Virus record (IMG/VR): IMGVR_UViG_3300045988_092438
Direction: 5' to 3' (one strand)
From: a virus
DNA length: 64,000 nucleotides
The position numbers were made by a program, and so were the translations under genes. Below, piece after piece: positions 2,628 through 57,123 of this stretch. Below the pieces are notes generated by a model that made no database searches, had not been told where the DNA came from, and saw only the letters and a program-made list of their open reading frames with translations. The first letter of the stretch is position 1, and each line of letters starts with the position of its first letter.

Positions 2628-4310
2628 TTATTTTCGTGTTGGTAAAGTTTCCACAATAGAGTCAATAACCTTTCTCACATCACTTGCACCTGTACCAATA
2701 GAACTATACACATTGATAACATCAATCACTCTTTCAGAAAAACCAGTGATAAGGTTCTTTCTGTAGTCATCAATATTAGCAATAGCAAAGTTATTACCTA
2801 AAAGGTTATCAATGTAAAGTTTCTTAATGACCTTGTTTTTAAAGAGTTTATTCAACTCAGCGTCAGTATCATAACTTCTACCACCCCAACTATAACCCCT
2901 TCTTAAAACAAAGGTCTTTCCACTTAAACTGTAGCAATCATTATCAGAAAGTACAATCAGATTATCATACTTAGTGTCCTGCTGATTAAGAGTGTAAAGT
3001 GCTACATCAAGAGAAGTTCCACCTCCAACATTATGTCTCTGAATCTCTTTCATAATGTCCATGACTGTAGACTTTCTGGAAATGTTAGTTACCTGTTCAC
3101 ACTTAGTAGCAAATACATACACATCTGCAATACCTTTCTTAAAGCAGATAGCACCTAACATACAAGCTACAATGTCAGCGGTCACATCAGAAGCACCAGA
3201 AACAGGATGTCTCATACTTCCACTTCTATCAATAAGGATAGCACTGTAACCCTCAATGTCCTGTAAGTTATCAATAGACAGGTCAAGTGCTTCTATTAAA
3301 GCGTCCATGACTCTTCTCTTTCCGGCAGAATTACTCAGATTGGAAACTTCCATATATGCACTGTAGAATCTGAATGGTAACAGTCTGGACTTCTCAACCT
3401 CTTTCTTATTGGTGAGTTTAGCCACAATACTATCAACTGCTTCTTTATCACTAAACATACCTGCTCTGTCAAGGGCTACAAGGTTTTTCACAATAGCCAT
3501 TACAGAAGAGGTGTCAATAGACTTCTTAACATCAGCCTTAGTAGACTTGCTGTTGCTGTTCTTAGATTTAGAAAGCTCACTCTGCACCTGCTTCACTTCT
3601 TCACTGCCACCAAACTCTACATTACCCTCGATAATCTGCTTAAAGAAGTCTCTGCTGACTCTGGACTTAGCCGGATTAGGTCTCAACAGCTTTACACAAT
3701 CTGCCATAGACACTTCTCTGTTTTCTCCAAGTGCTTTAGATAACTGATACTCATTAAAGGACTCCAACTTGTGCTGTAAAGCCTTTCTCAACTGCATTGG
3801 AAGTGGCTGATTTCTGTGACTGGATTTATTCTTACCACGACCTTTTGTAGTCACTTCAAAACCAAACACATTCATCTGCATTGCCATAATGTCAGTAATG
3901 TCTTTACCTCTTCTCACAATATAGTCACTGTAAGTCTGTAACTTATTCTTACCAGTCACTTCATCAAGAAAGTCCTCACCCTTAAATCTTGGGTCATTAA
4001 AACAAGCTGTGAGTACTGCCAGAGGGTACTGAATCATATTGTATTCTCTACCAATTCTGGCTACCTTGAGTGCATACTCAACGTCCTCGTCTGGGATTTC
4101 TGCAATCAATCTCTGGATTTCTTTAAAATCACTCTCAGCAGTCTTGCCCTTCTCATAGAAAGTCTTCTCACCAAAGAAGCTACCTAACACTTTACTAAAC
4201 AGTGTTTCAAGAGTGTTCAGCTTATGTACCACACTTCCCTCGTGGTTCACTGTCTTTCTAGTGTCTGGTTTCATGTTTACACTACCACGTTTGTTGTTCA
4301 TTGTTGCCAT
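2628..4310 (-). CDS. rsr: Ro60-related protein (TROVE domain + vWA/MIDAS)
   Basis: Collinear by-eye similarity to Ro60: RLLPFRFYSAY, ILIDRSGSM (MIDAS DxSxS), GGGTS, IVLSDND, ITGFSERVIDVI. GGAGGA RBS before ATG 4310. Confidence 0.8.
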   Translation of the reverse strand: MATMNNKRGSVNMKPDTRKTVNHEGSVVHKLNTLETLFSKVLGSFFGEKTFYEKGKTAESDFKEIQRLIAEIPDEDVEYALKVARIGREYNMIQYPLAVLTACFNDPRFKGEDFLDEVTGKNKLQTYSDYIVRRGKDITDIMAMQMNVFGFEVTTKGRGKNKSSHRNQPLPMQLRKALQHKLESFNEYQLSKALGENREVSMADCVKLLRPNPAKSRVSRDFFKQIIEGNVEFGGSEEVKQVQSELSKSKNSNSKSTKADVKKSIDTSSVMAIVKNLVALDRAGMFSDKEAVDSIVAKLTNKKEVEKSRLLPFRFYSAYMEVSNLSNSAGKRRVMDALIEALDLSIDNLQDIEGYSAILIDRSGSMRHPVSGASDVTADIVACMLGAICFKKGIADVYVFATKCEQVTNISRKSTVMDIMKEIQRHNVGGGTSLDVALYTLNQQDTKYDNLIVLSDNDCYSLSGKTFVLRRGYSWGGRSYDTDAELNKLFKNKVIKKLYIDNLLGNNFAIANIDDYRKNLITGFSERVIDVINVYSSIGTGASDVRKVIDSIVETLPTRK

Positions 4311-4343: not shown

Positions 4344-4378
4344 AATAAAAGACCTCACAATCGGGGAATTGTGAAGTC
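4344..4378 (-). terminator. rho-independent terminator closing the RNA operon
   Basis: 11-bp stem 4351-4361/4368-4378. Its single non-Watson-Crick pair is G-U only on the minus strand, and TTTTATTATA follows. Confidence 0.7.
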
Positions 4379-4398
4379 CTTTAATCTTAACTCAAAAT

Positions 4399-4545
4399 AG
4401 CAAGAAGAAAACCATTATTGTGTGAAATCTTTGTGCTTCATTAGCAGTGAAGTGCCTTACCATTAGGCTATCTGTCAAATTTTTGGCTGACGGAGTAGGA
4501 GTCGAACCTACAAAATGATGTAAACAATAACTACACAATCCTGCT
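4399..4545 (-). ncRNA. stalk module 1: circularly permuted tRNA-like RNA (anticodon-type loop CUGCUAA, GCU), Y RNA/YrlA-like candidate
   Basis: Minus-sense order: outer helix AGCAGGA, loop TTGTGTA, inner helix GTTATTGT, T-arm GTAGG-TTCGACT-CCTAC. Then acceptor hairpin TCCGTCA-GCCAAAAATT-TGACAGA, D-arm GCCT-AATGGTA-AGGC and hairpin CTTCA-CUGCUAA-TGAAG. It closes with ACAATAAT, loop GGTTTTCT and TCTTGCT. Confidence 0.6.
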
Positions 4546-4564
4546 ACAATTATTTCTTCGTTAA

Positions 4565-4714
4565 AATTAGGAGTAAAGCCATTTAGCTGAATTTCATATA
4601 ATGAAAGTTTTCAAGACTTTTGCGTATTCCAATTTCGCCAAATTGCTTTTACAGAGCAATTATCGGATTTGAACCGATATATTATGATGTAAGCTAAATG
4701 TACACAACCCAATT
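4565..4714 (-). ncRNA. stalk module 2: circularly permuted tRNA-like RNA (anticodon-type loop CUUGAAA, UGA), Y RNA/YrlA-like candidate
   Basis: Outer helix AATTGGG/CCTAATT, inner helix CATTTAGCT/AGCTAAATG (9 bp perfect), third helix TCATA/TATGA. T-arm ATCGG-TTCAAAT-CCGAT. Perfect 7-bp acceptor hairpin AATTGCT-CTGTAAA-AGCAATT. D-arm GCG..CGC. Hairpin AAAGT-CTTGAAA-ACTTT. Confidence 0.65.
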
Positions 4715-4728
4715 ATTATTCTCTCATA

Positions 4729-4854
4729 AAGTGGAGTAAAACGATAAAGTCTGTTTGTTTATCATAATGGGATTTGAACCCATATTCGTTCTGTGTTAGA
4801 AAACTGTCTTAACCATTTGACTATATGATGTAAACTTTATCTGCACAACCACTT
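4729..4854 (-). ncRNA. stalk module 3 (leader-trailer stalk enclosing the tRNA at 4759..4830)
   Basis: Outer helix AAGTGG/CCACTT, inner helix GATAAAGT/ACTTTATC, internal loop TTGTGCA x GTTTTACT. Confidence 0.6.
4759..4830 (-). tRNA. cloverleaf tRNA with anticodon loop CUAACAC (reads AAC, nominally Val); atypical
   Basis: Hand fold: acceptor CATCATA/TATGATA with a C1-A72 mismatch, D-arm GTC..GAC with a GG loop, anticodon stem GTTTT/AGAAC, T-arm ATGGG-TTCAAAT-CCCAT. Confidence 0.55.
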
Positions 4855-4868
4855 AATTTACTTTTCAT

Positions 4869-5002
4869 CAATAAGGAAGAAAAACGTGAAAGACTTCTTT
4901 TTCATATTGTTGGAATTGAACCAACTACACTTATTTCCCAAAAATAATGCTCTACCGATTGAGCTAAACATGATGTAATCTTTCACTACACATTCCTTAT
5001 TG
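4869..5002 (-). ncRNA. stalk module 4 (leader-trailer stalk enclosing tRNA-Pro)
   Basis: Outer helix CAATAAGGAA/TTCCTTATTG (10 bp perfect), inner helix GTGAAAGA/TCTTTCAC, internal loop TGTGTA x GTTTTTC. Confidence 0.65.
4901..4973 (-). tRNA. tRNA-Pro (UGG)
   Basis: Acceptor TCATGTT/AATATGA, D-arm GCTC-AATCGGTA-GAGC, anticodon arm TTATT-TTTGGGA-AATAA, T-arm GTTGG-TTCAATT-CCAAC. Confidence 0.8.
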
Positions 5003-5059
5003 TTTTAACACTGCTTTCAGCGTGTTTACACTATAACACACATTCTGAAAGCTGTCAAA

Positions 5060-5132
5060 CTGCCCTTACTGGATTTGAACCAGTGAAATGCAGGAGTCAA
5101 AGTCCTGTGCCTTACCACTTGGCGAAAGGGCA
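5060..5132 (-). tRNA. tRNA-Gln (UUG)
   Basis: TGCCCTT-TC-GCCAAGTGGTAAGGC-A-CAGGA-CTTTGAC-TCCTG..ACTGG-TTCAAAT-CCAGT-AAGGGCA-G. The U1-A72 pair and D-arm resemble bacterial tRNA-Gln. Confidence 0.8.
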
Positions 5133-5292
5133 TTAAAGCTGACATTTTCTCACGCATTTACCTTCCACCAGTGACACTTCTTAGTCATCACCAATGGTAC
5201 AGTCGAGTGGAGGGGCTGTCAGCTCACCTACTTTGGCTTATCTCTAACACATGAAAGTGAGAGTGTTTCTCCGGCACATTACCTCCGAAGAG

Positions 5293-5365
5293 TCGGAATG
5301 ACACGACTTGAACGTGCGACAAATAGATTAAAAGTCTACTGCTCTACCAACTGAGCTACATTCCG
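5293..5365 (-). tRNA. tRNA-Lys (UUU)
   Basis: CGGAATG-TA-GCTCAGTTGGTAGAGC-A-GTAGA-CTTTTAA-TCTAT-TTGTC-GCACG-TTCAAGT-CGTGT-CATTCCG-A. Confidence 0.85.
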
Positions 5366-5590
5366 TTAAGTCACTGTGGTAGGAGAGTCCGTCTATTATA
5401 CTCTCTGTTCACACTTCATTGGATAGACTAAAGTGATTTCGGCTACTACCTCCTTGTCTGCTACTCATACATATCCGTCTTGTCTATCAAGACCTTTCGC
5501 TTTGGCAATCAACAAGTTTGTGACTATCAGCATTTTTATGTAAGTCCTCCACTCCTGGAATACCTTACTTAGTCGGCTGACAAGACTAAA

Positions 5591-5678
5591 CTGACTCAGA
5601 GGACTCGAACCTGTGCTACGCATATAGCGTACTAAAAGATTAGCAATCTCTCCTCTTCACCAACTTGAGTAACACTCC
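5591..5678 (-). tRNA. class II tRNA-Ser(GCU)-like element whose acceptor strands do not pair (pseudo-tRNA or tRNA-like RNA)
   Basis: D-arm CTC..GAG, anticodon arm AGAGA-TTGCTAA-TCTTT, long variable arm TACGC-TATAT-GCGTA, T-arm ACAGG-TTCGAGT-CCTCT with one C-C mismatch. The 5' strand GGAGTGT cannot pair with the 3' strand GAGTCAG. Confidence 0.4.
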
Positions 5679-5771
5679 ATTACAGACAGTGTGATTTTAA
5701 CACCCCTGCTCACTTATTTACACCAAAGGGCTTTGGCTGTAAACTGTCTGCGTCTCTTGAAGACATTTCAG

Positions 5772-6457: not shown

Positions 6458-6539
6458 GCATTACGTCTTTAACAATAAATTATTTAATTATTTATATATT
6501 ATATATTATATTAAAGACTTATTGTTAATGATGTAATGC
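6458..6539. repeat. imperfect 21-nt inverted repeat flanking an extremely AT-rich core
   Basis: gcattacgtctttaacaataa (6458-6478) matches the rc of ttattgttaatgatgtaatgc (6519-6539) at 19/21 positions. The core is attatttaattatttatatattatatattatattaaagac. Confidence 0.7.
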
Positions 6540-6602
6540 CAGTTCCACTCATTCTTCGGACCATTCTTTAACACTGCTATATTCAGTGTTTAACACACAT
6601 TT

Positions 6603-7342
6603 ACCTCACATATACAGTGTTTTATGGACCACTTACCACACTCACAAAATACCTCACAGAATTTTAACACCTCACTTTCTCACCTTTCTCTCACAACACC
6701 TCACACATACAGGGGTATGGGGTTATTTTATACACATACCTTACCAAAATCTCGCCCAGTTCTAAGATACTAGGTGCAGTCTCGGCAGTCCACAGACCAT
6801 TTAAGGGTGGGGTGGACATATAAATTTTGGAAAATCAGTGTGTTTTCTCATAAAATCTTCACCAATTTTCAAACCATGTTGTTTTCTTCAATAATTTCTT
6901 GTGTTATGAATGAAATCATAAAATTTTTATTCAAAAGAATTTATATTTATACATTGTGTGTATAGTATTGTATATCACTTGTGTTATGTGTTGTGTATAC
7001 TATATGTAGTGTGTATCATGTGTATATAGTGTATGTATATACTATATGTAGTGTATGGGTGTACAATAAAATAAATGAATAATTATTACTTATTTACAGT
7101 GATTATACATATAATATACATAGAACTATTAAAAGACCACATATAGTATATTCAAATATATCACCAATTTTTATGCGGATATAGAGATATACTACCTACC
7201 ATATATTTCTTTATATATGTCTTTATTATAGCCTTCCACCCTCACCTCTTCTCACATCACAAATTTTTCTCACAGAATATTTTCATTTCAGTGACTTTCC
7301 AGAACCTCACTCACCTCTTTTAGTGTTTTTATATAACCTCAC
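6603..7342. repeat. dispersed ACCTCAC / TTCTCAC motif copies in a 1.1-kb non-coding region
   Basis: Exact ACCTCAC at 6603, 6651, 6669, 6698, 7304 and 7336, plus several CCCTCAC/TTCTCAC variants. Confidence 0.6.
6996..7054. repeat. 17-nt direct repeat tatactatatgtagtgt (x2) inside a TG/TA-rich low-complexity stretch
   Basis: Copies at 6996-7012 and 7038-7054. Confidence 0.7.
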
Positions 7343-14912: not shown

Positions 14913-15461
14913 TTACTCACAATGAAGTACCACCTTTCCTTCTTTTAAAGACTTCTGTACATCAATCACTCTCTGGTTACTACTTCCTCTCCACTTGAGA
15001 TTAACGTCTCTGAGGTCTTTCTTATATTCACCGTCTACAAGTACATCAATCAAAGGAAGAATCTTTGCAACCCCTTCATCATAAGTACTGTATCTTCCAA
15101 CTCCTGTGTGTGTCCAAGATACACACTCTTCTAACTCTTCAAAAGTATAACCTGTATACACCCAAATTGTCTTGTCGGGAAAATGTTTTTTAATCTGTTC
15201 CATGAGGTTAAAAACAGAATGAATATTAAATACAGCAAGTGGGTCTCCACCACTAAAGGTTATTCCAAAAACATAGTCTTTAGACAGCTCATTAAAAATC
15301 TCCCTCTTTGCTTCTTCATCAAACTCAATCCCACTGTTAGGAGACCAAGTTTCGGGATTCTGACACTCTTCACAATGATGTGGACACCCAGACACCCAAA
15401 GTACTACTCTGATTCCATCACCATTTAACATATCTTCATGGGTAATGTTGTGATAATTCAT
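14913..15461 (-). CDS. nrdG: anaerobic ribonucleotide reductase activating protein (radical SAM)
   Basis: DGIRVVLWVSGCPHHCEECQNPETW motif; size is typical. Confidence 0.8.
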   Translation of the reverse strand: MNYHNITHEDMLNGDGIRVVLWVSGCPHHCEECQNPETWSPNSGIEFDEEAKREIFNELSKDYVFGITFSGGDPLAVFNIHSVFNLMEQIKKHFPDKTIWVYTGYTFEELEECVSWTHTGVGRYSTYDEGVAKILPLIDVLVDGEYKKDLRDVNLKWRGSSNQRVIDVQKSLKEGKVVLHCE

Positions 15462-15463
15462 AC

Positions 15464-16144
15464 TTATTCCTCCTCTAATAAATCAGCTAACTTGACTTCC
15501 CGGAAGTAGTTGATAAAAGCAAATGTAAACTGGTCTCTTGCTGTAGCAAACAACCCTTTATAAAGACCTTCTTTTAATTCATCTAAATAGTATTCAGACA
15601 CTATCTTATCATGACAGAACCTCAAAGACTGCAACTTTCTCATATCAATCCTCTGAGTATGATACTTAACAGGTTGAAGCTCCTCACCTTCATTAAAAGG
15701 TTTCAATGGTTCATCATTCACACAAACTTTAAATACTGGAAGTCCTTCACTCACATACTGAAACTTTCCATCTGGCATTTTAATACCAATGTTAGTCATG
15801 TGTGCAGTGATATGTAACTCATGCAGATGACTGTCCATAACTACATACAGCTTATTGAGTCTGTCACCTTTCTTGTGATAGTAACACTCATTTACCATAT
15901 CAGTGTGTTCTACATTAAACTCTAAAGTGGCACTTATACAGCCCGACTCAAATTTTGAAGGTGGAATTGTGACTGGAACTCCATTCCGCATTACATCATT
16001 AAAACTATATTTTTCTATTATATTTAATTTATATAATATATTATATATTAAAGAGGTAATGGAGTCCTTCACCCTTCTCAGAAAAAGTCGGGTCTTTCTA
16101 AATGGAATAGGTTTTGTCATGGAGTAAAATTTAGCTTTGCTCAT
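15464..16144 (-). CDS. hypothetical protein
   Basis: GAGGAGG RBS before ATG 16144 (MSKAKFYS...). The 5' region contains an AT-rich repeat copy. Confidence 0.55.
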   Translation of the reverse strand: MSKAKFYSMTKPIPFRKTRLFLRRVKDSITSLIYNILYKLNIIEKYSFNDVMRNGVPVTIPPSKFESGCISATLEFNVEHTDMVNECYYHKKGDRLNKLYVVMDSHLHELHITAHMTNIGIKMPDGKFQYVSEGLPVFKVCVNDEPLKPFNEGEELQPVKYHTQRIDMRKLQSLRFCHDKIVSEYYLDELKEGLYKGLFATARDQFTFAFINYFREVKLADLLEEE

Positions 16145-16262
16145 TATATTCCTCCTCAATCACTTTAAAGAAGAACTCTTCCGGTTTAGGGTTTATCATG
16201 TTATCAATAACCTCTCTTACTGGAATACTTCCAACTTCTTTTTTAACTGGTTCTAACTTCAT
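16131..16262 (-). CDS. 43-aa hypothetical peptide, absent from the ORF track
   Basis: AAGGAG lies 7 nt before ATG 16262 (MKLEPVKKEVGSIPVREVIDNM...). It overlaps the next start by 14 nt. Confidence 0.4.
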   Translation of the reverse strand: MKLEPVKKEVGSIPVREVIDNMINPKPEEFFFKVIEEEYNEQS

Positions 16263-16284
16263 AGAAACACTCCTTTCTTTAAAT

Positions 16285-16327
16285 CAAAAAATCTATGCTA
16301 CATGATTATAACACATAGCATAGATTT
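16285..16327 (-). terminator. rho-independent terminator
   Basis: 12-bp stem AAATCTATGCTA/TAGCATAGATTT followed by TTTTTGATTT. Confidence 0.7.
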
Positions 16328-16338
16328 ATCAAATCGAC

Positions 16339-18417
16339 CTAAATATCAGCGTCCACTATATCTTCTTTTTTATCTTCATCACTCTTACCTAAGTCACCGA
16401 AAATTTTCTCTAAAATTCCTCCACGTTGTGGGTTCGTGACTTGAGTAGTCATTTCCTGTGTACCATCACTTCTGAGAATTTTGGTTTGTCTGAGAACTTC
16501 TGTACTTCCATTCTCATACATAGCTTTAAGCTGTCCTAAATATCTCATAGACTGGTCCATCATAGCAGACACATTCGGGTCTGGCAGTCCACCTTCAAGC
16601 ATTTCAAACATCATGGTTCTTTGTAATCTTCCCAGTGAGAAGTCCACAATACCCTGCATAGCTTGAATAATATCACCCATATCCCTTGTGTCAAACTTAT
16701 CAAAGATTTTGTTATAAGCACAAGCAAATCCGGCTTTATATTCTGGACATTTCTGAGCCGCATAACAGGTATCACAAGCCAGTTTAGGAAACTTCTTTGA
16801 GTACATCTTTTTTGGCTTCAACACTTGTCTCTGACCTTTAAGGAAGTGTCCATGTTCATCACGGATAGGTGTAATTCCCTCTTCTGCAAAGATTTCATCA
16901 TCTAAAGAATCAATCTCTGGTGCTTCACCATCAGTACTCTCTGGCAGGTATTTTGAAAGGACATTAAGGACTTCCATTTCAGAAACGTCCTCAGTGTCAT
17001 ATTCATCATCTGTGATATAAGTCTCACGCTCTTTCACTACCCTGTCAAAATTCGTGCCGAGAAGTAAGAGTTTATCATTCTCACCTAAAAGGTTCTCTTT
17101 GTAGAACTGAATAAGGTCAGTGACCCTTTCTTCATCACTCTGGACAATCCTGTTGATATAGAGGTCATGGATTTCTTTAATCACCTCTGGTGTATAAACC
17201 CGATTGATAAAGTCTGCATAATCTGGGTTATCCCAGTTCATAAAACAGGTCATATCAATAACACAGTTTAAAGCCTGTACTCTGTCCTCTTTAGAGACAT
17301 TAAAGAGTTCTGCATAGTGTTCCCATGTAGCGTCCTGCTCTTCTGGATTGTCTAACCACTCTGGTGTAGGGTATTCAATAGAGTCAAGGTCTGCTTCTGT
17401 TCTCTTCTCTCCCTTTGGTCTTAACCAGTACATTCTGGCTCTACACTGCTTCTGAATATATTCCTCTGCTTCAATAAAAGCATGAACATTTACCCTAATC
17501 ATTTCTGTGCTGTCTTCATCAAGTAACTTCTGTTCATCAAAGCCCAGAGAAACAAGTTTCGGGAGCATATTACCCTTCCACTTGTCTTTCTTTAAACGTG
17601 TCATCTTCTTACCAGTCCAGTAGTTGACTTCACCATACTGCAATCCTACCATCCACGTTGTAGAGTCTACTGTGTAAAATGGGAGGGAAGTTAAAAGAGA
17701 AGTCTTTGTCATAGCCATTCCATGTACAACAGTATTATATTTCTCTGTAATTCTAAGTCGGTCTCTGCAAATTCTCTCTCCGTCATCAGAGTCAAACTCC
17801 CAAGGCATACCAATATAGGGATAACGCTGTGCATATTGTTCCCAAGTTCTTGCTGTCTGCCCTTCATGGTAAATGAAACACACTGGAATACCTGTCTCAA
17901 GCATAAAAGGCTCAAAGTACTTTTCATTCCACTGCTGAACAATCTCTGGGTCAACATGACCTTCAATATCAAGATTGGCAATAGCAAAGATAATGTCCTT
18001 GTGCTTTTTAGCCCATTTTAAATATCTATCAATCTGTTTCTCCCAGTCTTCAATAGTGAACTCGGCATACTTAGAGTCATTCCGGTAAGTGTAAGCACCA
18101 GAGTCAACAAAGAATTTGATACCAAGACCACTAAACTTATCAACATTCATGTGTTTATTCTGCACATACTGATAGGACACCAGAAAGTTTCTGATACCCA
18201 TATCATACAGAATGTCGAAGTTTCTTTCATCTTCAACACCAGAGTATAACATATGAAAGTCCTGTTCATGGTCTACAATATCCCACAATGTCTTTGGCTT
18301 CTCTTGTACTGCTTCACCAGAATGGTCTTCTTTATTCGTAATTTGATTAAATTTGGACTTTCCAGAAGACTCTGGGGTATTTGTAGGCATTGCCTTTTTG
18401 AGCTTTAATTTAGGCAT
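16339..18417 (-). CDS. dpdA: DpdA-like (TGT-fold) 7-deazaguanine DNA transglycosylase with a ~350-aa C-terminal extension
   Basis: FFVDSGAYTYR, VVHGMAMTK and YTVDSTTWM motifs in the N-terminal half. Sits next to folE/queC/queE/queD. The C-terminal part carries CDTCYAAQKCPEYKAGFAC. Confidence 0.6.
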   Translation of the reverse strand: MPKLKLKKAMPTNTPESSGKSKFNQITNKEDHSGEAVQEKPKTLWDIVDHEQDFHMLYSGVEDERNFDILYDMGIRNFLVSYQYVQNKHMNVDKFSGLGIKFFVDSGAYTYRNDSKYAEFTIEDWEKQIDRYLKWAKKHKDIIFAIANLDIEGHVDPEIVQQWNEKYFEPFMLETGIPVCFIYHEGQTARTWEQYAQRYPYIGMPWEFDSDDGERICRDRLRITEKYNTVVHGMAMTKTSLLTSLPFYTVDSTTWMVGLQYGEVNYWTGKKMTRLKKDKWKGNMLPKLVSLGFDEQKLLDEDSTEMIRVNVHAFIEAEEYIQKQCRARMYWLRPKGEKRTEADLDSIEYPTPEWLDNPEEQDATWEHYAELFNVSKEDRVQALNCVIDMTCFMNWDNPDYADFINRVYTPEVIKEIHDLYINRIVQSDEERVTDLIQFYKENLLGENDKLLLLGTNFDRVVKERETYITDDEYDTEDVSEMEVLNVLSKYLPESTDGEAPEIDSLDDEIFAEEGITPIRDEHGHFLKGQRQVLKPKKMYSKKFPKLACDTCYAAQKCPEYKAGFACAYNKIFDKFDTRDMGDIIQAMQGIVDFSLGRLQRTMMFEMLEGGLPDPNVSAMMDQSMRYLGQLKAMYENGSTEVLRQTKILRSDGTQEMTTQVTNPQRGGILEKIFGDLGKSDEDKKEDIVDADI

Positions 18418-18422
18418 ATCTC

Positions 18423-18992
18423 TTACCCCTTTCTTCTCTCTTTAAATTCCTCATAACTGTCTTCAAATCCCGGATGTGTTCTTTTAAAGTATGTGATAGT
18501 ACTGCAATCACTCTCAGCACCACGACACTTCACACACTGGTGTGTTGCTTCTACCTCTACAAAGAGTGCATGAGGTTCAAGCATATTAAACAGGAACTCT
18601 CCAATCTCTGTAGTCAGCTTCTCCTGTAACTGTGGTCTCTTACTAAAGTACTTCACCACTCTTGGAAGTTTTGACAGTCCAATGATTGTGTCACTCGGAA
18701 CATAACCAATAGTGACTTTGCCGGAGAAAGGTAAGAAGTGGTGTTCACAAGTAGAGTTAAATTCAATATCCCTTACAATCACCATTTCACTCTCATACTC
18801 ATTCGGAAAGGTAGTCATGGTCTCCTTTAACTCCTTCATGTGAGCGTCATTCACATTTGCAAATAACTCATTCACCCACATCTTAGCCACTCTGAGGGGA
18901 GTGTTCTTATTGCTCTCTGTCTTTGGGATTTCAAGAATTCTCATAATCTCTTCAAGATGTTCCTTAATTGCTTCTACTTTGTTATTTATCAT
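18423..18992 (-). CDS. folE: GTP cyclohydrolase I
   Basis: CEHHFLPF, GLSKLPR and HQC..RG motifs. Confidence 0.85.
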   Translation of the reverse strand: MINNKVEAIKEHLEEIMRILEIPKTESNKNTPLRVAKMWVNELFANVNDAHMKELKETMTTFPNEYESEMVIVRDIEFNSTCEHHFLPFSGKVTIGYVPSDTIIGLSKLPRVVKYFSKRPQLQEKLTTEIGEFLFNMLEPHALFVEVEATHQCVKCRGAESDCSTITYFKRTHPGFEDSYEEFKERRKG

Positions 18993-53253: not shown

Positions 53254-53565
53254 TTAAGCATAGACAACCTCACTCATTTCCAGAATCATATCTTCCAGGG
53301 AAGTAGCTCTTTCATTAAGAGTAACCTGCCCTGTAGACAAAGCGGTTAAAAATTCGTCTTTCTCATACTCCTTCACAGTGTAAGAGTACAGAGGAACTAA
53401 TTCTTGACCTTCTGCTAACTGTCCTTTTTCAGCCACACGTTCACTCTCTGGAACTTCTTTAATGTTGGTATTCACATACACATGACTACCATCATATTCA
53501 ACTTCCTTCGGCTTTACTGTTGACTGAACATTTTCCATTGTTTTCATTGGCTTTCTTTCCTCCAT
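53254..53565 (-). CDS. hypothetical acidic protein (XkdW position)
   Basis: Overlaps the 3' end of the RT ORF. The likely start is ATG 53547, after GGAGG. Confidence 0.45.
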   Translation of the reverse strand: MEERKPMKTMENVQSTVKPKEVEYDGSHVYVNTNIKEVPESERVAEKGQLAEGQELVPLYSYTVKEYEKDEFLTALSTGQVTLNERATSLEDMILEMSEVVYA

Positions 53566-54679
53566 TCTTTAAATGATTTATATAATACTCCTCCACAGGT
53601 TTCTCTAAAGGTTTGAAGTACTTCTTATACAGTCTGTAACTGTTACAGTAAGATAGCCAACCCTTGTAGGAGTTAATACAACAGTAGTCGGAGTAAGACA
53701 TTTCTACACCACTCTCCACCTTCAAGCGAATTTTCGTCATCTTTGACTTCATTCTCTTTGAAGTAGAAGCTCTTAATAAAACAAAATCCGGGAATACTCT
53801 ATACCCGACAAAATCTACTCCTCTGTCTGCTACTGGGAACACTTGATAATTACTCTTGATAGTCAAGTGTCTCTCCACTCGCATATATTCTATAATCTCC
53901 CATTTCAACTTATATAAGTACTCTTTGGAGTGGTGGAGGATAACAATATCATCCATGTATCTGTAATAGTACTTAATACCTTTGACTTCTTTTATCCAGT
54001 GGTCGAAAGGTGATAAGTAAAAGTTTCCGCTAAACTGAGAAAGGTAGTTGCCTATTGGAATACCTGTATCGGAAGACATTGTGATGTTTAATTCTAAATA
54101 CCACAGAAGACCTTCATCTTTGAAAATTCTTCTGTAGTCATTCAAAAGGATTTCTCTGTCAATAGATGGATAGTATTTCTTAACGTCCATCTTTAAACAG
54201 TATTGAGTACCTTCAACATCATTTTGTATGTCATTTCTTACCCTTTCAAAAGCTAAATGAATACCTCTGTCTGGAATTGCGGAGTAGGTATCATATATGA
54301 ACTGCCTTAAAAGGATTGGAGCTATCACCTGTAGGACAGCCCACTGTATAACTCTTTCTGGGAAGTAACGTGACTTATAAATAACCCTTTCCTTCTCACG
54401 TTCTTTTCTTAGGAATTTCTCATAAGGTAGTGGAACATAAGTCCTTAACACTAACATATTCTGTATAGCTTTAAGGTGTTTCTCTGGGTCTTTATTGAAG
54501 TCACGAACTTCTTTGTACCAGTGTTTACCTTTACTAGCGTTTTTGTGTGCAAGTTTAAGATTTTCAATGGAACAAATCTTTTCCCATATAGTAAGCGTCT
54601 TATCTTCTTTCCCAGTTACAGGGTCTATAGGATATAAATGACGCTTCATAAACCATGTACTCCAAAGCCTAATCTTCAA
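53498..54679 (-). CDS. DGR-type reverse transcriptase
   Basis: IPIGNYLSQFSGNFYL and YYRYMDDIVIL motifs, with adjacent TR/VR. The likely true start is ATG 54649 (MKRHLYPID...). Confidence 0.9.
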   Translation of the reverse strand: MKIRLWSTWFMKRHLYPIDPVTGKEDKTLTIWEKICSIENLKLAHKNASKGKHWYKEVRDFNKDPEKHLKAIQNMLVLRTYVPLPYEKFLRKEREKERVIYKSRYFPERVIQWAVLQVIAPILLRQFIYDTYSAIPDRGIHLAFERVRNDIQNDVEGTQYCLKMDVKKYYPSIDREILLNDYRRIFKDEGLLWYLELNITMSSDTGIPIGNYLSQFSGNFYLSPFDHWIKEVKGIKYYYRYMDDIVILHHSKEYLYKLKWEIIEYMRVERHLTIKSNYQVFPVADRGVDFVGYRVFPDFVLLRASTSKRMKSKMTKIRLKVESGVEMSYSDYCCINSYKGWLSYCNSYRLYKKYFKPLEKPVEEYYINHLKNGGKKANENNGKCSVNSKAEGS

Positions 54680-54881
54680 ACGCTTTGTAAAGGTGTACCT
54701 TCTTTACTCAGCTACCAACAAGACTATCTGCTGTCAATGAAACACTATATGTTCTACCATCATACTTGTGTCATTTAACACTGATGACCTAACCCATGTT
54801 AGAGAGGTAGGGTAAAGAAGTTACACGGATTTTTAATTTATTTCAAAAGTAAACACTTCCGAAACTGAGTACAGTGCCGTG

Positions 54882-54987
54882 AAGTGGTCGCTGATATTAC
54901 AATTACGATTAGAAGCCACATTATTCAGATTCCAATAGAACAGCTCAGATTTCGTACCATTATTCCAATTCGTACCCAATAGGGTAA
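54882..54987 (-). repeat. DGR template repeat (TR)
   Basis: 106-nt repeat of 55241..55346. The sense strand is rich in AAT codons (..NWNNGTKSELFYWNLNNVASNRNCNISDH). Confidence 0.9.
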
Positions 54988-55200
54988 ATACTTGGAACAC
55001 TCATATTACTGAGCGTCCAAGTATTTCATGTGTACTGTTGGTGGCAAGAAATTCTGTAATTCTTGACCGCTTATAACCCAAATCATTACCCGATTTAGTG
55101 AAGTGGTGTTTCGTCACAATCACTGTTAATATTATAACCTTAATTCAAGCGTTTGTAAAGAAGATAGGCTTCTCCTTTCTTCAAAATTTTTTCTTTAGTT

Positions 55201-57123
55201 TTATGCTACTGCAATAGTGACTGTCTTTGATTTTCTGCACAAGCGGCCGCCGACAGTACAATCACGAACAGAAGCCACAAAATCCAGACCCCAACAGAAC
55301 AGCCCAGAATCCGTAACAACATCCCAATCCGCACCCAATAGGGCAATGTAGATGCTATTGTTACTCATATTGACATAGTAGTAATCACCTACAGGTCTGT
55401 TACTGTCTCCACCGACTTTAGAGGTCATATACATGAAATCACAATCTTCGGAGTAACCAAAGGCTTTAATATAACCCTCTTTTGTAGCACAGCTAAATCC
55501 AGTAGCAATATAGTCTGCGATTGTGTCAGAGAAGTCTTTACTTCCGTCCTGCCAGTATGCTTCATTACAGTCACTACTTGCGGAATGTTTTCTGAGGAAT
55601 CCATCAATGAATTTCCAGATGTTTCCGAAAGGATTCTTAACACCTCTGTAAACAGGAACATCAACATTGTAAGCAGTACCATTAGAGTGTGTATAATTAA
55701 CAGTAATCTTACCACTGCCATTTCCTAAAGTGGTGTTTGCCGGATTAGGTACAGAGTTGTTAATGTTATCTACCCAAGGAAGATTTGTAACACCACTACC
55801 GAAGACACTTACTGCTTGAATGTTAAATGTTGCATACTCTACCACAAATAACATCTGCTCTGCACTTGCAATAGTAACGTCTTCTTGAATCCAGTCTACA
55901 CCTCTGTTAGCACACAGTTTTCTAACTGCGTCTCTTGTAAGGTTCTTGTTACCAGTAGCACTTACTCCGGCAACAGTAGCTCCACTTGCAGGTTTAGCTC
56001 TGGCAATAGAACTGAACTTCTGTCCAGTGTAAGGACTTGCAGAGAGTGTGCCACTATCAGTGAGGTCATAAGTTCCACGGGTTTCAATACAACCATCATT
56101 CTCACCAATAAAGTAGTAATCAAGCTCTACATCACCTTTCTTAAATGCCGGGTGAAGTTTAAATCCGTCTCTTGCTGTAGGACTGATAAGGTCAATCCAC
56201 TTGGTCATGTGATAGCCCTTTACTTGATAGGTGTCATCAACCTGCTTCTCAAGTCTGACAGGGATTCTCTTGTAATAGAACTTAGGTTGCATAACCATAC
56301 ACTGTACTTTAGTTCCTACAGCTACGTCACCTACTGCTACAGTTAAAGCTCCTGTCTCTGTATAGGCTTCATCACCATAGAAAGCAACAACTTTTCCGTC
56401 ATCAGTTACATTGCATCTTCGTCTGTTACCATATACAGGAGACTTGTCATAATCTTCACCTGCACTCCAATACTGGTTATCACCCATTCTCTTAACACTG
56501 TTGTTGTCAAGGTCTACTTCTACACCCATAACACCTTCTCCAAGAGTTCCGAGCTGAACTTGAAGGTCAATAACTGTGTTAGAGAGGTTGCTAAAGCTAA
56601 TCTCCTTACACAGTCTTGTCATAACACCATCAGCAACTTTAGCAATAGCAAGATTATGTCTTGCCGAATCTGTTGTAGTTGCAAGAGTGTATTTAACCAC
56701 TTTACGTCTGGAAGTCTCTGTATCAGAACGATTGTCTTTAAACCAGTTAGTTACAGTAGTACTGTCCTGCTGATTTCCCTCTTCTTTCAGTGTTTCACTG
56801 TAAGTAGCTGTATCTTCCCACACTTGAAGGTAAACAGTTCCACTTGAAGCTGTAAGAGAGAGTCCAGTGCTTTCAACCATGTAACCACCAACTGCTAAAG
56901 CACAACCCTCTTTTACTTTTACTGCCCCACCTTCATACACAATCTTACTGAGGTCAGTGACACCATCACCAATGATGTTTTTGATAGCTCTTCTAAGCAT
57001 ACTCTTCTGAATTTCCTGCACTTCATTCATTTCTACTTCAAGAAGTGGTTTTTCAGCACCAAAGACAACACCGGAAACTCCTGCGTTGTCTCTATGATTT
57101 GTGTATTTATCAAAACTTGCCAT
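55201..57123 (-). CDS. tail fibre / receptor-binding protein, DGR target (C-terminal CLec-type variable region)
   Basis: 640 aa. The VR encodes ALLGADWDVVTDSGLFCWGLDFVASVRDCTVGGRLC, 13 codons before the stop. Confidence 0.85.
   Translation of the reverse strand: MASFDKYTNHRDNAGVSGVVFGAEKPLLEVEMNEVQEIQKSMLRRAIKNIIGDGVTDLSKIVYEGGAVKVKEGCALAVGGYMVESTGLSLTASSGTVYLQVWEDTATYSETLKEEGNQQDSTTVTNWFKDNRSDTETSRRKVVKYTLATTTDSARHNLAIAKVADGVMTRLCKEISFSNLSNTVIDLQVQLGTLGEGVMGVEVDLDNNSVKRMGDNQYWSAGEDYDKSPVYGNRRRCNVTDDGKVVAFYGDEAYTETGALTVAVGDVAVGTKVQCMVMQPKFYYKRIPVRLEKQVDDTYQVKGYHMTKWIDLISPTARDGFKLHPAFKKGDVELDYYFIGENDGCIETRGTYDLTDSGTLSASPYTGQKFSSIARAKPASGATVAGVSATGNKNLTRDAVRKLCANRGVDWIQEDVTIASAEQMLFVVEYATFNIQAVSVFGSGVTNLPWVDNINNSVPNPANTTLGNGSGKITVNYTHSNGTAYNVDVPVYRGVKNPFGNIWKFIDGFLRKHSASSDCNEAYWQDGSKDFSDTIADYIATGFSCATKEGYIKAFGYSEDCDFMYMTSKVGGDSNRPVGDYYYVNMSNNSIYIALLGADWDVVTDSGLFCWGLDFVASVRDCTVGGRLCRKSKTVTIAVA
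55241..55346 (-). repeat. DGR variable repeat (VR) inside the fibre gene
   Basis: Hand alignment at offset 359 gives 24 mismatches. 23 of these lie where the TR sense strand has A. Confidence 0.9.

What the first reader, a model, noticed from the sequence alone, without database searches (positions are those of the whole stretch)
4399..4714. Two circularly permuted tRNA-like cores with closed acceptor stems and serine anticodons
In modules 1 and 2 the element order is T-arm, acceptor 3' strand, closing loop, acceptor 5' strand, D-arm, then a complete anticodon-type hairpin. That hairpin has U33 and a purine at position 37 (loops CUGCUAA and CUUGAAA). The stalk therefore emerges at the variable-arm position. 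Both anticodons (GCU and UGA) belong to serine, whose tRNAs are class II with a long variable arm, so the stalk is topologically an opened variable arm. In module 1 the acceptor 3' strand is followed by GCCA. In module 2 the acceptor hairpin is a perfect 7 bp closed by CTGTAAA. Established knowledge: YrlA RNAs next to rsr are tRNA mimics with a closed acceptor stem. Here an extra anticodon-like hairpin is retained, which differs from my recollection of YrlA. Inference: these are either Ro60-tethering tRNA mimics or precursors of two-piece (split) tRNA-Ser, released by RNase P-type cleavage in the closing loop.
Basis: partly seen in the sequence, partly recalled or inferred. Interest (0 to 1): 0.85.

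Follow-up and report, generated by a model that had tools for sequence, protein, structure and literature searches.

The report
Phage Y RNAs shaped like whole tRNAs
Two small RNA genes just upstream of a gut phage's Ro60 gene fold into rearranged (circularly permuted) but complete tRNA shapes, making them a new variant of the known Ro60-partner "Y RNAs" rather than working serine tRNAs; the anticodon of one of them changes faster than silent sites between near-identical phages.

Summary
Module 1 (4399-4545) and module 2 (4565-4714) each read stalk, T arm, closed acceptor hairpin, D arm, 5-bp/7-nt anticodon-type hairpin, stalk. Thirty homologues support every helix by covariation. After computational un-permutation ARAGORN of 39 as full-length tRNAs.

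They lie between a sigma-70-type promoter and a terminator, directly upstream of a phage Ro60 (rsr) gene. Their two-helix stalk, with a conserved internal loop, recurs upstream of distantly related Ro60 genes in Clostridia. I read them as YrlA-type Y RNAs, that is, Ro60-partnered tRNA mimics. The new features are a true anticodon arm and a stalk that leaves at the variable-arm position instead of replacing the anticodon stem.

The serine reading holds only in part. Module 2 keeps UGA. Module 1's anticodon is GCU, UUU or UGU among phages whose Ro60 is at least 96% identical, and GUU, ACG, AUU or UGA in more distant relatives. A functional split tRNA-Ser is unlikely: module 2 is closed, and near-identical relatives lost module 1's CCA.

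The same stalk also encloses two canonical tRNAs, one with an equally hypervariable anticodon. Verdict: new variant of a known kind. Ro60 binding and function are untested.

The parts
5030..5058 (-). Sigma-70-type promoter (TTGACA, 17 nt, TG-n-TATAGT) that starts the four-module RNA operon
   Evidence: 11 of 12 matches plus an extended -10 TG. It is conserved in relatives.
4868..5002 (-). Module 4: canonical tRNA-Pro(UGG) (4901-4973) enclosed by the same H0 / internal loop / H1 stalk
   Evidence: tRNA 61.1 bits. R1 model hit, 50.9 bits; stalk covariation on 25 canonical modules.
4725..4857 (-). Module 3: canonical-order tRNA (Val AAC here; 4759-4830) on the same stalk. It has a C1.A72 mismatch and a hypervariable anticodon in relatives.
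   Evidence: (47.1 bits).
4565..4714 (-). Module 2: permuted tRNA-shaped Y RNA. H0 4714-4708/4571-4565; internal loop UUGUGUA 4707-4701 / GCUUUACU 4579-4572; H1 4700-4693/4587-4580; T arm 4678-4662; closed 7-bp acceptor hairpin 4661-4641 (loop CUGUAAA); D arm 4638-4622; anticodon-type arm 4620-4604 (UGA at 4613-4611)
   Evidence: 156 bits; un-permuted: tRNA-Ser UGA.
4399..4545 (-). Module 1: permuted tRNA-shaped Y RNA. H0 4545-4539/4405-4399; internal loop UUGUGUA 4538-4532 / GGUUUUCU 4413-4406; H1 4531-4524/4421-4414; T arm 4511-4495; acceptor 3' strand 4494-4488; G73-CCA 4487-4484; spacer 4483-4478; acceptor 5' strand 4477-4471; D arm 4468-4454; anticodon-type arm 4452-4436 (GCU at 4445-4443)
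   Evidence: YrlA 28.7 bits; 142 bits; un-permuted: tRNA-Ser GCU.
4346..4383 (-). Intrinsic-terminator-type hairpin (17 bp) followed by UUUUAUUAU, between module 1 and rsr
   Evidence: -20 kcal/mol, z -5.1, 0 of 200 shuffles fold as well. It is conserved in relatives.
2628..4310 (-). rsr: phage Ro60 orthologue (560 aa from the ATG at 4310; RBS GGAGG at 4323-4319)
   Evidence: TROVE 5.7e-15, vWA_Ro60 9.7e-9. Thermus phage Ro60 9L5Y 6e-16, D. radiodurans Rsr 3e-7, Xenopus Ro60 1e-4; homologues start with MATMN.

Best explanation
Modules 1 and 2 are phage-encoded Y RNAs of the YrlA (tRNA-mimic) kind. They are non-coding partners of the Ro60 protein encoded directly downstream.

Shown:
- A sigma-70-type promoter (5058-5030) precedes four tandem modules, and a terminator hairpin (4383-4346) follows them.
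- Every module has the same stalk: outer helix H0, a conserved 7/8-nt internal loop (5' UUGUGUA, 3' G-N-UUUU-W-CU), an 8-bp helix H1, then UUAC-AUCAU.
- In modules 1 and 2 the stalk carries a complete, circularly permuted, class-II-shaped cloverleaf. Its acceptor stem is closed by a loop, and the stalk leaves between the anticodon arm and the T arm.

Inferred:
- The stalk is the Ro60 docking site.
- The tRNA-shaped head is the effector end that engages a host tRNA-binding factor, as proposed for YrlA and shown for the Ro60/Y RNA/PNPase machines.
- Module 1 has a 7-bp acceptor stem, G73-CCA and a 6-nt spacer in its loop. RNase P can probably nick it into a two-piece, CCA-ended RNA that stays base-paired, as happens to M. 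smegmatis YrlA. Module 2 stays closed.
- The anticodon of module 1 changes faster than synonymous sites while the rest of the module is frozen. The partner therefore probably reads the anticodon loop. My favoured but untested candidate is a host anticodon-targeting factor such as an anticodon nuclease.
For: Location and partner:
- The modules are on the same strand as a bona fide Ro60 gene and end about 90 nt upstream of it.
- The Rfam YrlA model aligns end to end to module 1 (28.7 bits, E 1e-3).

Structure:
- All helices are supported by covariation on 30 modules from phages with 65-97% identical Ro60: 97.4% of cells paired, 27 of 38 pairs with double changes, and no shuffle or slid control comes close.

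The stalk is the constant unit:
- It covaries around canonical tRNAs as well (14 of 14 stalk pairs).
- In relatives it also occurs with small non-tRNA inserts, for example L126:189-305, L152:1320-1408 and L156:425-513.
- A covariance model built from the modules hits upstream of Ro60 genes that are only 25-28% identical, in Clostridia/Eubacteriales MAGs. Every hit with E < 0.1 is on the Ro60 strand.
- A stalk-signature scan gives 33 hits on the Ro60 strand in 25 of 79 distant loci, all upstream, against 2 on the other strand.

tRNA mimicry:
- The T-loop, the D-loop GG, U33 and A38 are invariant.
- ARAGORN accepts 37 of 39 un-permuted modules.

Precedents:
- YrlA RNAs are described as circularly permuted tRNA mimics with closed acceptor stems.
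- M. smegmatis YrlA is cut by RNase P and gets CCA in vivo (PMC4201824; 10.1101/312249).
- A Thermus phage Ro60 binds phage Y-like RNAs and host PNPase (PMC12135203).

Anticodon hypervariability:
- Within the clade with Ro60 at least 96% identical, 5 of the 6 anticodon nucleotides of modules 1 and 3 vary in a ten-genome alignment. Only 108 of 559 rsr third-codon positions vary in nine of those genomes.
- Two of the three array columns with three or more alleles are anticodon nucleotides.
Against: - There is no experimental evidence here that the RNAs exist, are processed, or bind Ro60.
- The motif that defines the Ro60 site of published YrlAs (GNCGAAN0-1G on the 5' strand) is absent.
- The Rfam YrlA score is far below gathering (28.7 against 69), and module 2 is not hit at all.
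- The inner stalk helix (AUC/GAU) never covaries.
- Single-sequence folds are not better than shuffles. For module 1 the MFE prefers a competing pairing, AUUGUGU/ACACAAU.
- The same stalk around canonical tRNAs could mean it is a processing or stability signal of a tRNA operon rather than a Ro60 site.
- Part of the covariation count reflects the two paralogue families (module 1 type against module 2 type).
Confidence: 0.75

Rival explanations
1. Functional permuted/split tRNAs. Module 1, and perhaps module 2, is opened in the acceptor loop by RNase P and 3' trimming. It is then aminoacylated, by SerRS via G73 plus the long variable-arm-like stalk or by the synthetase matching the anticodon, and decodes on the ribosome as a two-piece tRNA.
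For: - The cloverleaf is complete and has canonical CU-NNN-AA anticodon loops.
- Module 1 encodes G73-CCA followed by a short spacer and a U at -1.
- NCCA recurs in many module 1 homologues: GCCA, ACCA or CCCA.
- G2:C71, A3:U70, C11:G24 and G73 match E. coli tRNA-Ser identity elements (sequence reading plus my own recollection of the identity set).
- SerRS ignores the anticodon (established knowledge), so anticodon switching would not abolish charging.
- There is an RNase P / CCA precedent in M. smegmatis YrlA (PMC4201824).
Against: - Module 2 and all its homologues are closed by 4-7 nt loops with no discriminator or CCA.
- Near-identical phages replaced module 1's GCCA-spacer by GCGUU or GCAUU while keeping everything else. 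L126's module 1 has a tetraloop.
- The module 2 anticodon hairpin is degenerate in L126 and L127 (8-nt loop or mismatches) while the rest is kept.
- The 'variable arm' would be a helical stalk of more than 20 bp whose internal loop is sequence-conserved together with Ro60 genes.
- There is no special similarity to the family's canonical tRNA-Ser.
Confidence: 0.1
2. A tRNA-operon processing or stability cassette unrelated to Ro60. The stalks are leader-trailer duplexes that direct an endonuclease or protect precursors. Modules 1 and 2 are rearranged relics of tandem tRNA genes that ride along.
For: - Modules 3 and 4 are bona fide-looking tRNAs (57.6 and 61.1 bits) inside the same covarying stalk.
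- The whole array sits at the end of a phage tRNA cluster.
- The published Ro60-site motif is absent.
Against: - The stalk signature occurs upstream of Ro60 genes in Clostridial MAG loci where the head is a YrlA-type T/acceptor/D module and not a releasable tRNA.
- Stalk-only modules exist.
- The upstream tRNAs of the same cluster (Gln, Lys) lack the stalk.
- Modules 1 and 2 are under strong purifying selection with compensatory changes in every helix. That does not fit relics.
Confidence: 0.1
3. Non-functional pseudogenes or chance tRNA-like debris created by recombination between tRNA genes.
For: Recombination between tRNA genes does occur in this very locus. The window carries a tRNA-Ser/tRNA-Asn chimera made by a 526-nt deletion at the shared T-loop.
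Against: - The modules are conserved from 65% to 97% Ro60 identity, with 27 of 38 pairs showing compensatory changes.
- tRNA tertiary nucleotides are invariant.
- The position between promoter and terminator is fixed.
Confidence: 0.02

Closest known systems
YrlA RNAs (Rfam RF02553; Chen et al. 2014, PMC4201824; crystal structure in Wang et al. 2018, 10.1101/312249)
   Same: - Encoded just upstream of rsr on the same strand.
- The 5' and 3' ends pair into a long stem.
- The head has T arm, closed acceptor stem-loop and D arm in that order, with the tRNA tertiary nucleotides.
- They are described as circularly permuted tRNA mimics.
- There is a weak but full-length match of the Rfam model to module 1.
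   Different: - In YrlA the stalk continues the anticodon stem and there is no anticodon loop. Here a complete 5-bp/7-nt anticodon arm follows the D arm and the stalk leaves at the variable-arm position.
- The GNCGAAN0-1G motif is absent and replaced by a different conserved internal loop.
- The score is far below Rfam's gathering threshold.
Mycobacterium smegmatis YrlA (RNase P-cleaved, CCA-added, two halves bound by Rsr; PMC4201824)
   Same: - It has a 7-bp acceptor stem closed by a loop.
- Module 1 even encodes G73-CCA plus a spacer, so the same nicking to a two-piece RNA is expected.
   Different: - Cleavage has not been tested here.
- The M. smegmatis RNA has no anticodon arm.
- The CCA of module 1 is dispensable in near-identical phages.
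Y-like RNAs next to Ro60 in Clostridia/Eubacteriales MAGs (found here: L161, L163, L170, L177, L182, L191)
   Same: - The stalk signature is the same: GUG-Y-A, an 8-nt box, UUAC, then the complementary box and a U-rich CUC tail.
- The position upstream of Ro60 is the same.
- T arm, closed acceptor and D arm are present. L161 carries ACCA in the acceptor loop.
   Different: In the loci inspected, the extra hairpin lies 5' of the T arm (the classical YrlA order), usually with 9-11 nt loops. No hairpin follows the D arm.
Circularly permuted tRNA genes of Cyanidioschyzon merolae and other algae/archaea (Soma et al. 2007, as cited in 10.1101/312249)
   Same: The 3' half lies upstream of the 5' half. 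The acceptor stem is initially closed by a loop that RNase P / RNase Z can open.
   Different: - Those precursors are circularised at a bulge-helix-bulge motif by the splicing endonuclease and a ligase, and become ordinary tRNAs.
- Here the junction is a long stalk with a 7/8-nt internal loop, not a bulge-helix-bulge.
- No such endonuclease is reported in bacteria (10.1101/312249).
- Most copies cannot yield a free CCA end.
Two-piece tmRNA from permuted ssrA genes (my own knowledge, not checked in the held library)
   Same: A bacterial tRNA-like RNA is made from a circularly permuted gene. The CCA-bearing acceptor piece is encoded upstream, and the two pieces stay base-paired.
   Different: There is no tag reading frame and no tmRNA signature. 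ARAGORN's tmRNA search is negative.
Phage-encoded tRNAs that counter anticodon nucleases (PMC10264068; T5 tRNA-Lys against PARIS, PMC11464382)
   Same: Both are phage-borne tRNA-shaped RNAs in which the anticodon stem-loop is the evolving part. UUU (Lys) is the commonest module 1 anticodon.
   Different: - Those are ordinary, chargeable tRNAs that replace cleaved host tRNAs.
- The modules here are permuted, mostly closed at the acceptor end and tied to Ro60.
- The link to anticodon nucleases is my inference only.

Membership tests
YrlA-type Y RNA | Encoded within a few kb of rsr/Ro60, on the same strand | tested here: met
   The modules end 89 nt upstream of the rsr start codon, on the same strand. 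All homologues do the same.
YrlA-type Y RNA | The 5' and 3' ends pair into a long stem | tested here: met
   H0 (7 bp) and H1 (8 bp): 11 of 15 pairs show double changes and 98-100% of cells are paired.
YrlA-type Y RNA | Head with T arm, closed acceptor stem-loop and D arm in that order, carrying tRNA tertiary nucleotides | tested here: met
   the T-loop GGUUC.A.UC is invariant, one G of the D-loop GG pair is invariant, and both the acceptor stem and the T arm covary.
YrlA-type Y RNA | GNCGAAN0-1G motif on the 5' strand of the stem (putative Ro60 site) | tested here: not met
   There is no match on the minus strand between 4390 and 5010. A different conserved internal loop (UUGUGUA / G-N-UUUU-W-CU) is present.
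YrlA-type Y RNA | The stalk takes the place of the anticodon stem, and there is no anticodon loop | tested here: not met
   A covarying 5-bp/7-nt hairpin follows A26, and the stalk leaves between it and the T arm.
YrlA-type Y RNA | Reaches the Rfam RF02553 gathering score (69 bits) | tested here: not met
   Module 1 scores 28.7 bits and module 2 has no hit at E <= 10. None of 20 related loci, Actinobacteria included, reaches gathering either, so the model is narrow.
YrlA-type Y RNA | Bound by Ro60/Rsr in vivo | not testable with these tools
   This needs RIP or EMSA. The only support is indirect: the stalk signature co-occurs with distant Ro60 genes.
Functional (elongator) tRNA-Ser | Contiguous cloverleaf recognised by tRNA finders | tested here: not met
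   ARAGORN and Rfam tRNA at gathering find nothing at 4399-4714. Recognition needs computational un-permutation.
Functional (elongator) tRNA-Ser | Free 3' N73-CCA end available for aminoacylation | tested here: inconclusive
   Module 1 encodes GCCA inside the acceptor loop and would need RNase P plus trimming, which was not tested. Module 2 has none. Near-identical phages lack it in module 1.
Functional (elongator) tRNA-Ser | Serine anticodon conserved among orthologues | tested here: not met
   Module 1 carries GCU, UUU, UGU, GUU, ACG, AUU or UGA, or a 6-nt loop. Module 2 mostly carries UGA, but the loop is degenerate in L126 and L127, and is UAA in L146.
Permuted tRNA genes (Cyanidioschyzon type) | The 3' half is encoded upstream of the 5' half, and the acceptor stem is closed by an intervening loop | tested here: met
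Permuted tRNA genes (Cyanidioschyzon type) | Bulge-helix-bulge motif at the junction, cut by the splicing endonuclease to give a circular intermediate | tested here: not met
   The junction is H2 / loop / H1 / a 7-8-nt internal loop / H0. There are no 3-nt bulges 4 bp apart. The enzyme is not reported in bacteria (10.1101/312249).
tmRNA (one- or two-piece) | tRNA-Ala-like acceptor plus a tag reading frame | tested here: not met
   ARAGORN's tmRNA search of the window is negative.

The most novel reading that the evidence does not exclude
The phage family mounts tRNA bodies on one Ro60-docking stalk in at least three circular permutations: at the acceptor end, at the variable arm, and at position 26. 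It uses them as Ro60-tethered anticodon-loop decoys or baits. The anticodon triplet is the only fast-evolving part of modules 1 and 3 because it must match whichever anticodon-reading host factor threatens that phage lineage. The most likely such factor is a defence anticodon nuclease, with tRNA-Lys-type loops the commonest. Ro60, with a recruited exonuclease, would then sequester or dispose of the bound or cleaved complex.
Probability: 0.2. Interest if true: 0.9.

Novelty: new variant of a known kind. Interest (0 to 1): 0.68.

Why it matters
The function of the tRNA-like domain of bacterial Y RNAs is still unknown. Published YrlAs lack an anticodon loop, so their partner has been expected to read the tRNA elbow.

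- **A testable hypothesis.** This phage family keeps a bona fide anticodon arm, and in one permuted and one canonical module it changes only the anticodon faster than silent sites. That points to an anticodon-reading partner and makes the question testable with a defined set of natural alleles (GCU, UUU, UGU, GUU on one scaffold).
- **Evolutionary intermediates.** Module 1 reads T arm, acceptor 3' strand, G73-CCA, short spacer, acceptor 5' strand, D arm, anticodon arm. A tRNA-tRNA junction would give exactly this. The modules therefore look like living intermediates for the proposal that Y RNAs arose from dimeric tRNA transcripts.
- **A second Ro60-associated stem signature.** It is shared by Firmicutes-type Ro60 loci, and current Rfam models miss it.
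- **An annotation warning.** Some 'tRNAs' called in phage arrays may be heads of Ro60-associated RNAs.

Tried and rejected
1. A DNA pattern for the 5' stalk motif scanned against viral contigs was too unspecific. It returned about 120 chance single hits and was abandoned. Relatives were collected through the Ro60 protein instead.
2. A diversity-generating retroelement as the cause of anticodon variation. The window does carry one (RT 53498-54679, TR 54882-54987, VR 55241-55346). However, there is no second copy of the module 1 anticodon arm anywhere in the 64 kb. Rejected.
3. Descent from the family's own canonical tRNA-Ser. Un-permuted modules are no closer to it than to other tRNAs. No support either way.
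4. Detecting permuted modules with ARAGORN on doubled inserts failed because the joined linker was too long. It was replaced by an explicit un-permutation and a hairpin parser.
5. Rfam at gathering on 20 related loci gave only tRNA hits. The YrlA model is too narrow to decide membership.
6. The exact anticodon-arm pattern in viral contigs added one unrelated locus, L240, with no R1 hit. Treated as a chance or unrelated hairpin.
7. Two Y RNA reviews (PMC10870794, PMC6047535) are not held.
8. Single-sequence thermodynamic folding does not single out the structure.
Full report
**What is there**

The feature is on the minus strand. Reading 5' to 3', module 1 (4545 to 4399) runs as follows:
- an outer helix H0
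- the motif UUGUGUA
- an 8-nt box (H1 5' strand)
- UUACAUCAUUUU
- a T arm (GUAGG-UUCGACU-CCUAC)
- the acceptor 3' strand UCCGUCA
- G-CCA and the spacer AAAAUU
- the acceptor 5' strand UGACAGA
- U8-A9 and a D arm with GG
- A26
- the hairpin CUUCA-CUGCUAA-UGAAG
- a linker, the complement of the 8-nt box, GGUUUUCU, and the H0 3' strand

Module 2 (4714 to 4565) has the same plan. Its acceptor hairpin is a perfect 7 bp closed by CUGUAAA, and its hairpin is AAAGU-CUUGAAA-ACUUU. The coordinates 4399-4714 run exactly from H0 of module 1 to H0 of module 2. ARAGORN and Rfam at gathering see only four ordinary tRNAs further upstream: Val 4759-4830, Pro 4901-4973, Gln 5060-5132 and Lys 5292-5365.

**Is it more than chance?**

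The ORF directly downstream (2628-4310) is a Ro60 orthologue. Pfam gives TROVE and vWA_Ro60. PDB hits include Thermus phage Ro60, D. radiodurans Rsr and Xenopus Ro60. Using it as a handle I collected relatives with 60-98% identical Ro60 from IMG/VR, ENA, Logan and JGI. They are uncultured phage genomes of about 85 kb, many from human gut.

Thirty distinct permuted modules align well. On that alignment:
- The proposed structure has 97.4% of cells paired, against 69.8% in column shuffles and 34-45% when partners are slid.
- 27 of 38 pairs carry double (compensatory) changes.
- The anticodon-type hairpin has 5 of 5 covarying pairs.
- U33 and A38 are invariant, C32 and A37 nearly so, as is the T-loop.

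I then un-permuted each module in silico: acceptor 5' strand through anticodon arm, the inner stalk closed by GAAA, then T arm, acceptor 3' strand and N73-CCA. ARAGORN called 37 of 39 as full-length long-variable-arm tRNAs. Single-sequence folding energies are unremarkable (z -0.5 to -2.0), and for module 1 the MFE picks a competing pairing. The evidence is comparative.

**Context**

A strong sigma-70-type promoter lies just upstream of the tRNA-Pro module (TTGACA, 17 nt, TG-n-TATAGT; 5058-5030). A 17-bp hairpin followed by UUUUAUUAU lies between module 1 and rsr (4383-4346; z -5.1). Both are conserved in relatives.

Between them are four modules, and all four carry the same stalk. The canonical tRNA-Pro and tRNA-Val are enclosed by H0, the internal loop and H1 in the same way. 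On 25 such canonical modules all 14 stalk pairs covary, with 99% of cells paired. The motif AUCAU that follows UUAC forms the start of the acceptor stem in the canonical modules. In the permuted ones it forms the start of the inner stalk. The upstream tRNA-Gln and tRNA-Lys have no stalk.

**What the stalk is**

A covariance model built from the permuted modules (R1) finds all family members. With lower scores it also finds RNAs upstream of Ro60 genes that are only 25-28% identical, in Clostridia, Eubacteriales and related MAGs. Every hit with E < 0.1 is on the Ro60 strand.

The alignments show that the shared part is the stalk: GUG-Y-A, box, UUAC, then the box complement and a U-rich CUC tail. 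T arm, closed acceptor and D arm are shared too. A simple stalk-signature scan of 79 distant Ro60 loci gives 33 hits on the Ro60 strand in 25 loci, all upstream of the gene, and 2 on the other strand. Relatives also contain stalk modules with only a small non-tRNA insert, for example L126:189-305, L152:1320-1408 and L156:425-513.

The stalk is thus the constant unit and it travels with Ro60. That is what is expected of the Ro60-binding stem of Y RNAs. It is not the published site, because GNCGAAN0-1G is absent. Rfam's YrlA model gives 28.7 bits against a gathering score of 69 for module 1 and nothing for module 2. It also reaches gathering in none of 20 related loci.

**Comparison with YrlA**

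- Chen et al. 2014 (PMC4201824) and Wang et al. 2018 (10.1101/312249) describe YrlA as a circularly permuted tRNA mimic.
- Its order is stalk, variable region, T arm, closed acceptor stem, D arm, stalk. [quoted passage not shown] - In the window's modules the hairpin lies on the other side of the stalk, one nucleotide after the D stem, and has a canonical anticodon loop. The stalk therefore occupies the variable-arm position.
- Relatives with 60-64% identical Ro60 (L141, L152, L156) show a third arrangement: stalk, UCAUA-CUGUUAA-UAUGA, short variable region, T arm, closed acceptor, D arm, stalk. This is a break at position 26. Rfam's tRNA model matches the stretch from the anticodon-type hairpin to the T arm of L152 and L156 above gathering.
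- Counting the canonical modules, the family mounts tRNA bodies on one stalk in three orientations.

**The serine argument**

Module 2's CUUGAAA loop is retained in most relatives, with compensatory changes in its stem. UGA is also the anticodon of the single permuted module in the 65-68% relatives (L128, L129, L140). A class II tRNA-Ser(UGA) ancestor is plausible, although sequence similarity to the family's canonical tRNA-Ser gives no support.

Module 1's GCU is not conserved:
- In the clade with Ro60 at least 96% identical, GCU appears three times, UUU five times and UGU four times.
- Elsewhere the anticodon is mostly UUU, with GUU, ACG and AUU, or a 6-nt loop.
- In the window's lineage only positions 34-35 change. 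U36-A37-A38 stay fixed, so all alleles mimic ANN-decoding tRNAs.

In a 758-column alignment of the promoter-to-rsr region of ten such genomes, only three columns have three or more nucleotides. Two of them are anticodon positions: module 3 position 34 and module 1 position 35. Five of the six anticodon nucleotides of modules 1 and 3 vary. By comparison, 108 of 559 rsr third-codon positions vary in nine of those genomes, and 4 of 559 have three or more alleles. By my arithmetic the binomial probability of five or more variable out of six at that rate is about 1e-3.

Modules 2 and 4 are stable, with 1 of 6 anticodon nucleotides variable. The module 3 slot carries AAC, GCA, UCC, UCA, GUA, GUU, GUC, GAU or UCU in the relatives with at least 76% identical Ro60. 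The acceptor stem and D arm are conserved, with a C1.A72 mismatch and A73. That is hard to reconcile with correct aminoacylation. The phage's own diversity-generating retroelement is not the cause, because no template copy exists in the window.

**Split tRNA or mimic?**

Module 1 looks exactly like a tRNA-tRNA junction: T arm, acceptor 3' strand, G73-CCA, 6-nt spacer, U(-1), acceptor 5' strand. This fits the model that Y RNAs arose from dimeric tRNA transcripts (cited in 10.1101/312249). It also makes RNase P nicking likely, as shown for M. smegmatis YrlA (PMC4201824).

Several points argue against a decoding role:
- Module 2 and all its homologues are closed without a discriminator or CCA.
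- Several near-identical phages have GCGUU or GCAUU in place of module 1's GCCA-spacer.
- L126's module 1 has a tetraloop.
- The 'variable arm' is a long, sequence-conserved, Ro60-linked stalk.

I therefore rate functional two-piece tRNA-Ser as unlikely (about 0.1). A Ro60-partnered tRNA mimic is the best explanation (about 0.75).

**Mechanism, with status of each step**

Shown by sequence and comparison:
- one promoter, four stalked modules, a terminator, then rsr
- a conserved, covarying stalk linked to Ro60 genes
- a complete permuted cloverleaf with an anticodon arm
- anticodon hypervariability in modules 1 and 3

Inferred from established knowledge of Ro60/Y RNA systems (PMC4201824; PMC12135203):
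- Ro60 docks on the stalk.
- The tRNA-shaped head recruits a tRNA-binding host factor or nuclease.
- Module 1 can be nicked by RNase P.

Speculative:
- The partner reads the anticodon loop. It could be a defence anticodon nuclease, since tRNA-Lys is a recurrent target and phage tRNAs are known countermeasures (PMC10264068, PMC11464382). The modules would then act as Ro60-tethered decoys.

**The genome**

The window is part of a phage. It encodes NrdD/NrdG, ThyX, PolA, DnaB, primase, RecA, a baseplate protein and an endolysin with CW_7 and LysM. The endolysin points to a Gram-positive host. No cultured relative exists at the DNA or Ro60 level.

**Verdict**

This is a new architectural variant of the known YrlA class of Y RNAs, set in an unusual array of stalk-mounted tRNAs. 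The fast-evolving anticodon is the most interesting and still unexplained feature.

Noticed in passing
window 4725-4857 and 4868-5002 (minus strand): Two canonical-order tRNAs (Val-AAC, Pro-UGG) are enclosed by the same covarying stalk as the permuted modules. The conserved AUCAU/AUGAU forms their acceptor stem. The module 3 tRNA has a C1.A72 mismatch and A73. Its anticodon differs between relatives with at least 76% identical Ro60 (AAC, GCA, UCC, UCA, GUA, GUU, GUC, GAU, UCU) on a conserved acceptor/D-arm scaffold.
   Followed up: partly
L141:2104-2256, L152:1175-1310, L156:280-415: Phage relatives with 60-64% identical Ro60 carry a third permutation: stalk, anticodon-type hairpin UCAUA-CUGUUAA-UAUGA, short variable region, T arm, closed acceptor, D arm, stalk. 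The break is at position 26. Rfam's tRNA model matches this stretch above gathering in L152 and L156.
   Followed up: partly
L126:189-305, L152:1320-1408 and 391-497, L156:425-513, L141:2267-2400: These are stalk-only modules, with the same H0 / loop / H1 and only one or two small hairpins inside. They are reminiscent of the small second Y RNA (YrlB) of other bacteria.
   Followed up: no
window 5560-5733 (minus strand): A chimeric pseudo-tRNA. The 5' part of tRNA-Ser(GCU) is fused at the shared T-loop sequence to the 3' part of tRNA-Asn(GUU). Relative to L001, which has both genes intact, this is a 526-nt deletion. This phage therefore lacks both canonical tRNAs.
   Followed up: yes
window 53498-55346: A diversity-generating retroelement: reverse transcriptase ORF 53498-54679 (minus strand), template repeat 54882-54987, and a 77%-identical variable repeat 55241-55346 at the 3' end of the 640-aa ORF 55201-57123, next to tail and baseplate genes.
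   Followed up: partly
window 14913-18992: Genes matching queuine tRNA-ribosyltransferase (692 aa, 16339-18417) and GTP cyclohydrolase (18423-18992) lie next to the anaerobic ribonucleotide reductase small subunit (14913-15461), which also gives a weak QueE-like radical-SAM hit. From my own knowledge, such gene sets in phages usually indicate 7-deazaguanine DNA modification.
   Followed up: no
L161:2000-2139, L163, L170, L182 (Clostridia / Eubacteriales MAGs): Bacterial Ro60 loci carry one to three tandem Y-like RNAs with the same stalk signature, which Rfam does not detect. L161's first copy has A-CCA-U as its acceptor loop on a 7-bp stem, which suggests RNase P nicking there too.
   Followed up: partly
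L149:101-257 and L251:111-314: In two contigs module 1 has an internal deletion from the anticodon loop (CUUUU) to the 3' internal-loop motif (CUUUUCUUCC). It removes the 3' half of the anticodon arm and the H1 3' strand. This looks like a microhomology deletion that inactivates the module.
   Followed up: no
L246:2369-2494 and L255 (about 2365-2530): Two independent assemblies have a 6-nt anticodon-type loop (CUUUAA) in module 1, one U shorter than the common CUUUUAA. This could be a real variant or a homopolymer error.
   Followed up: no
window 6480-7200 (minus strand): A non-coding stretch of about 700 nt, very AT-rich, full of short TATACA/CACTA-type repeats, upstream of the tRNA cluster. 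It might be an origin, a packaging region or a regulatory region.
   Followed up: no
L126, L128, L248-L250 (contig ends): Several independent assemblies break about 0.8 kb upstream of rsr, inside the tRNA/module array. The repeated stalk motifs may cause this, or a genome terminus may lie there.
   Followed up: no
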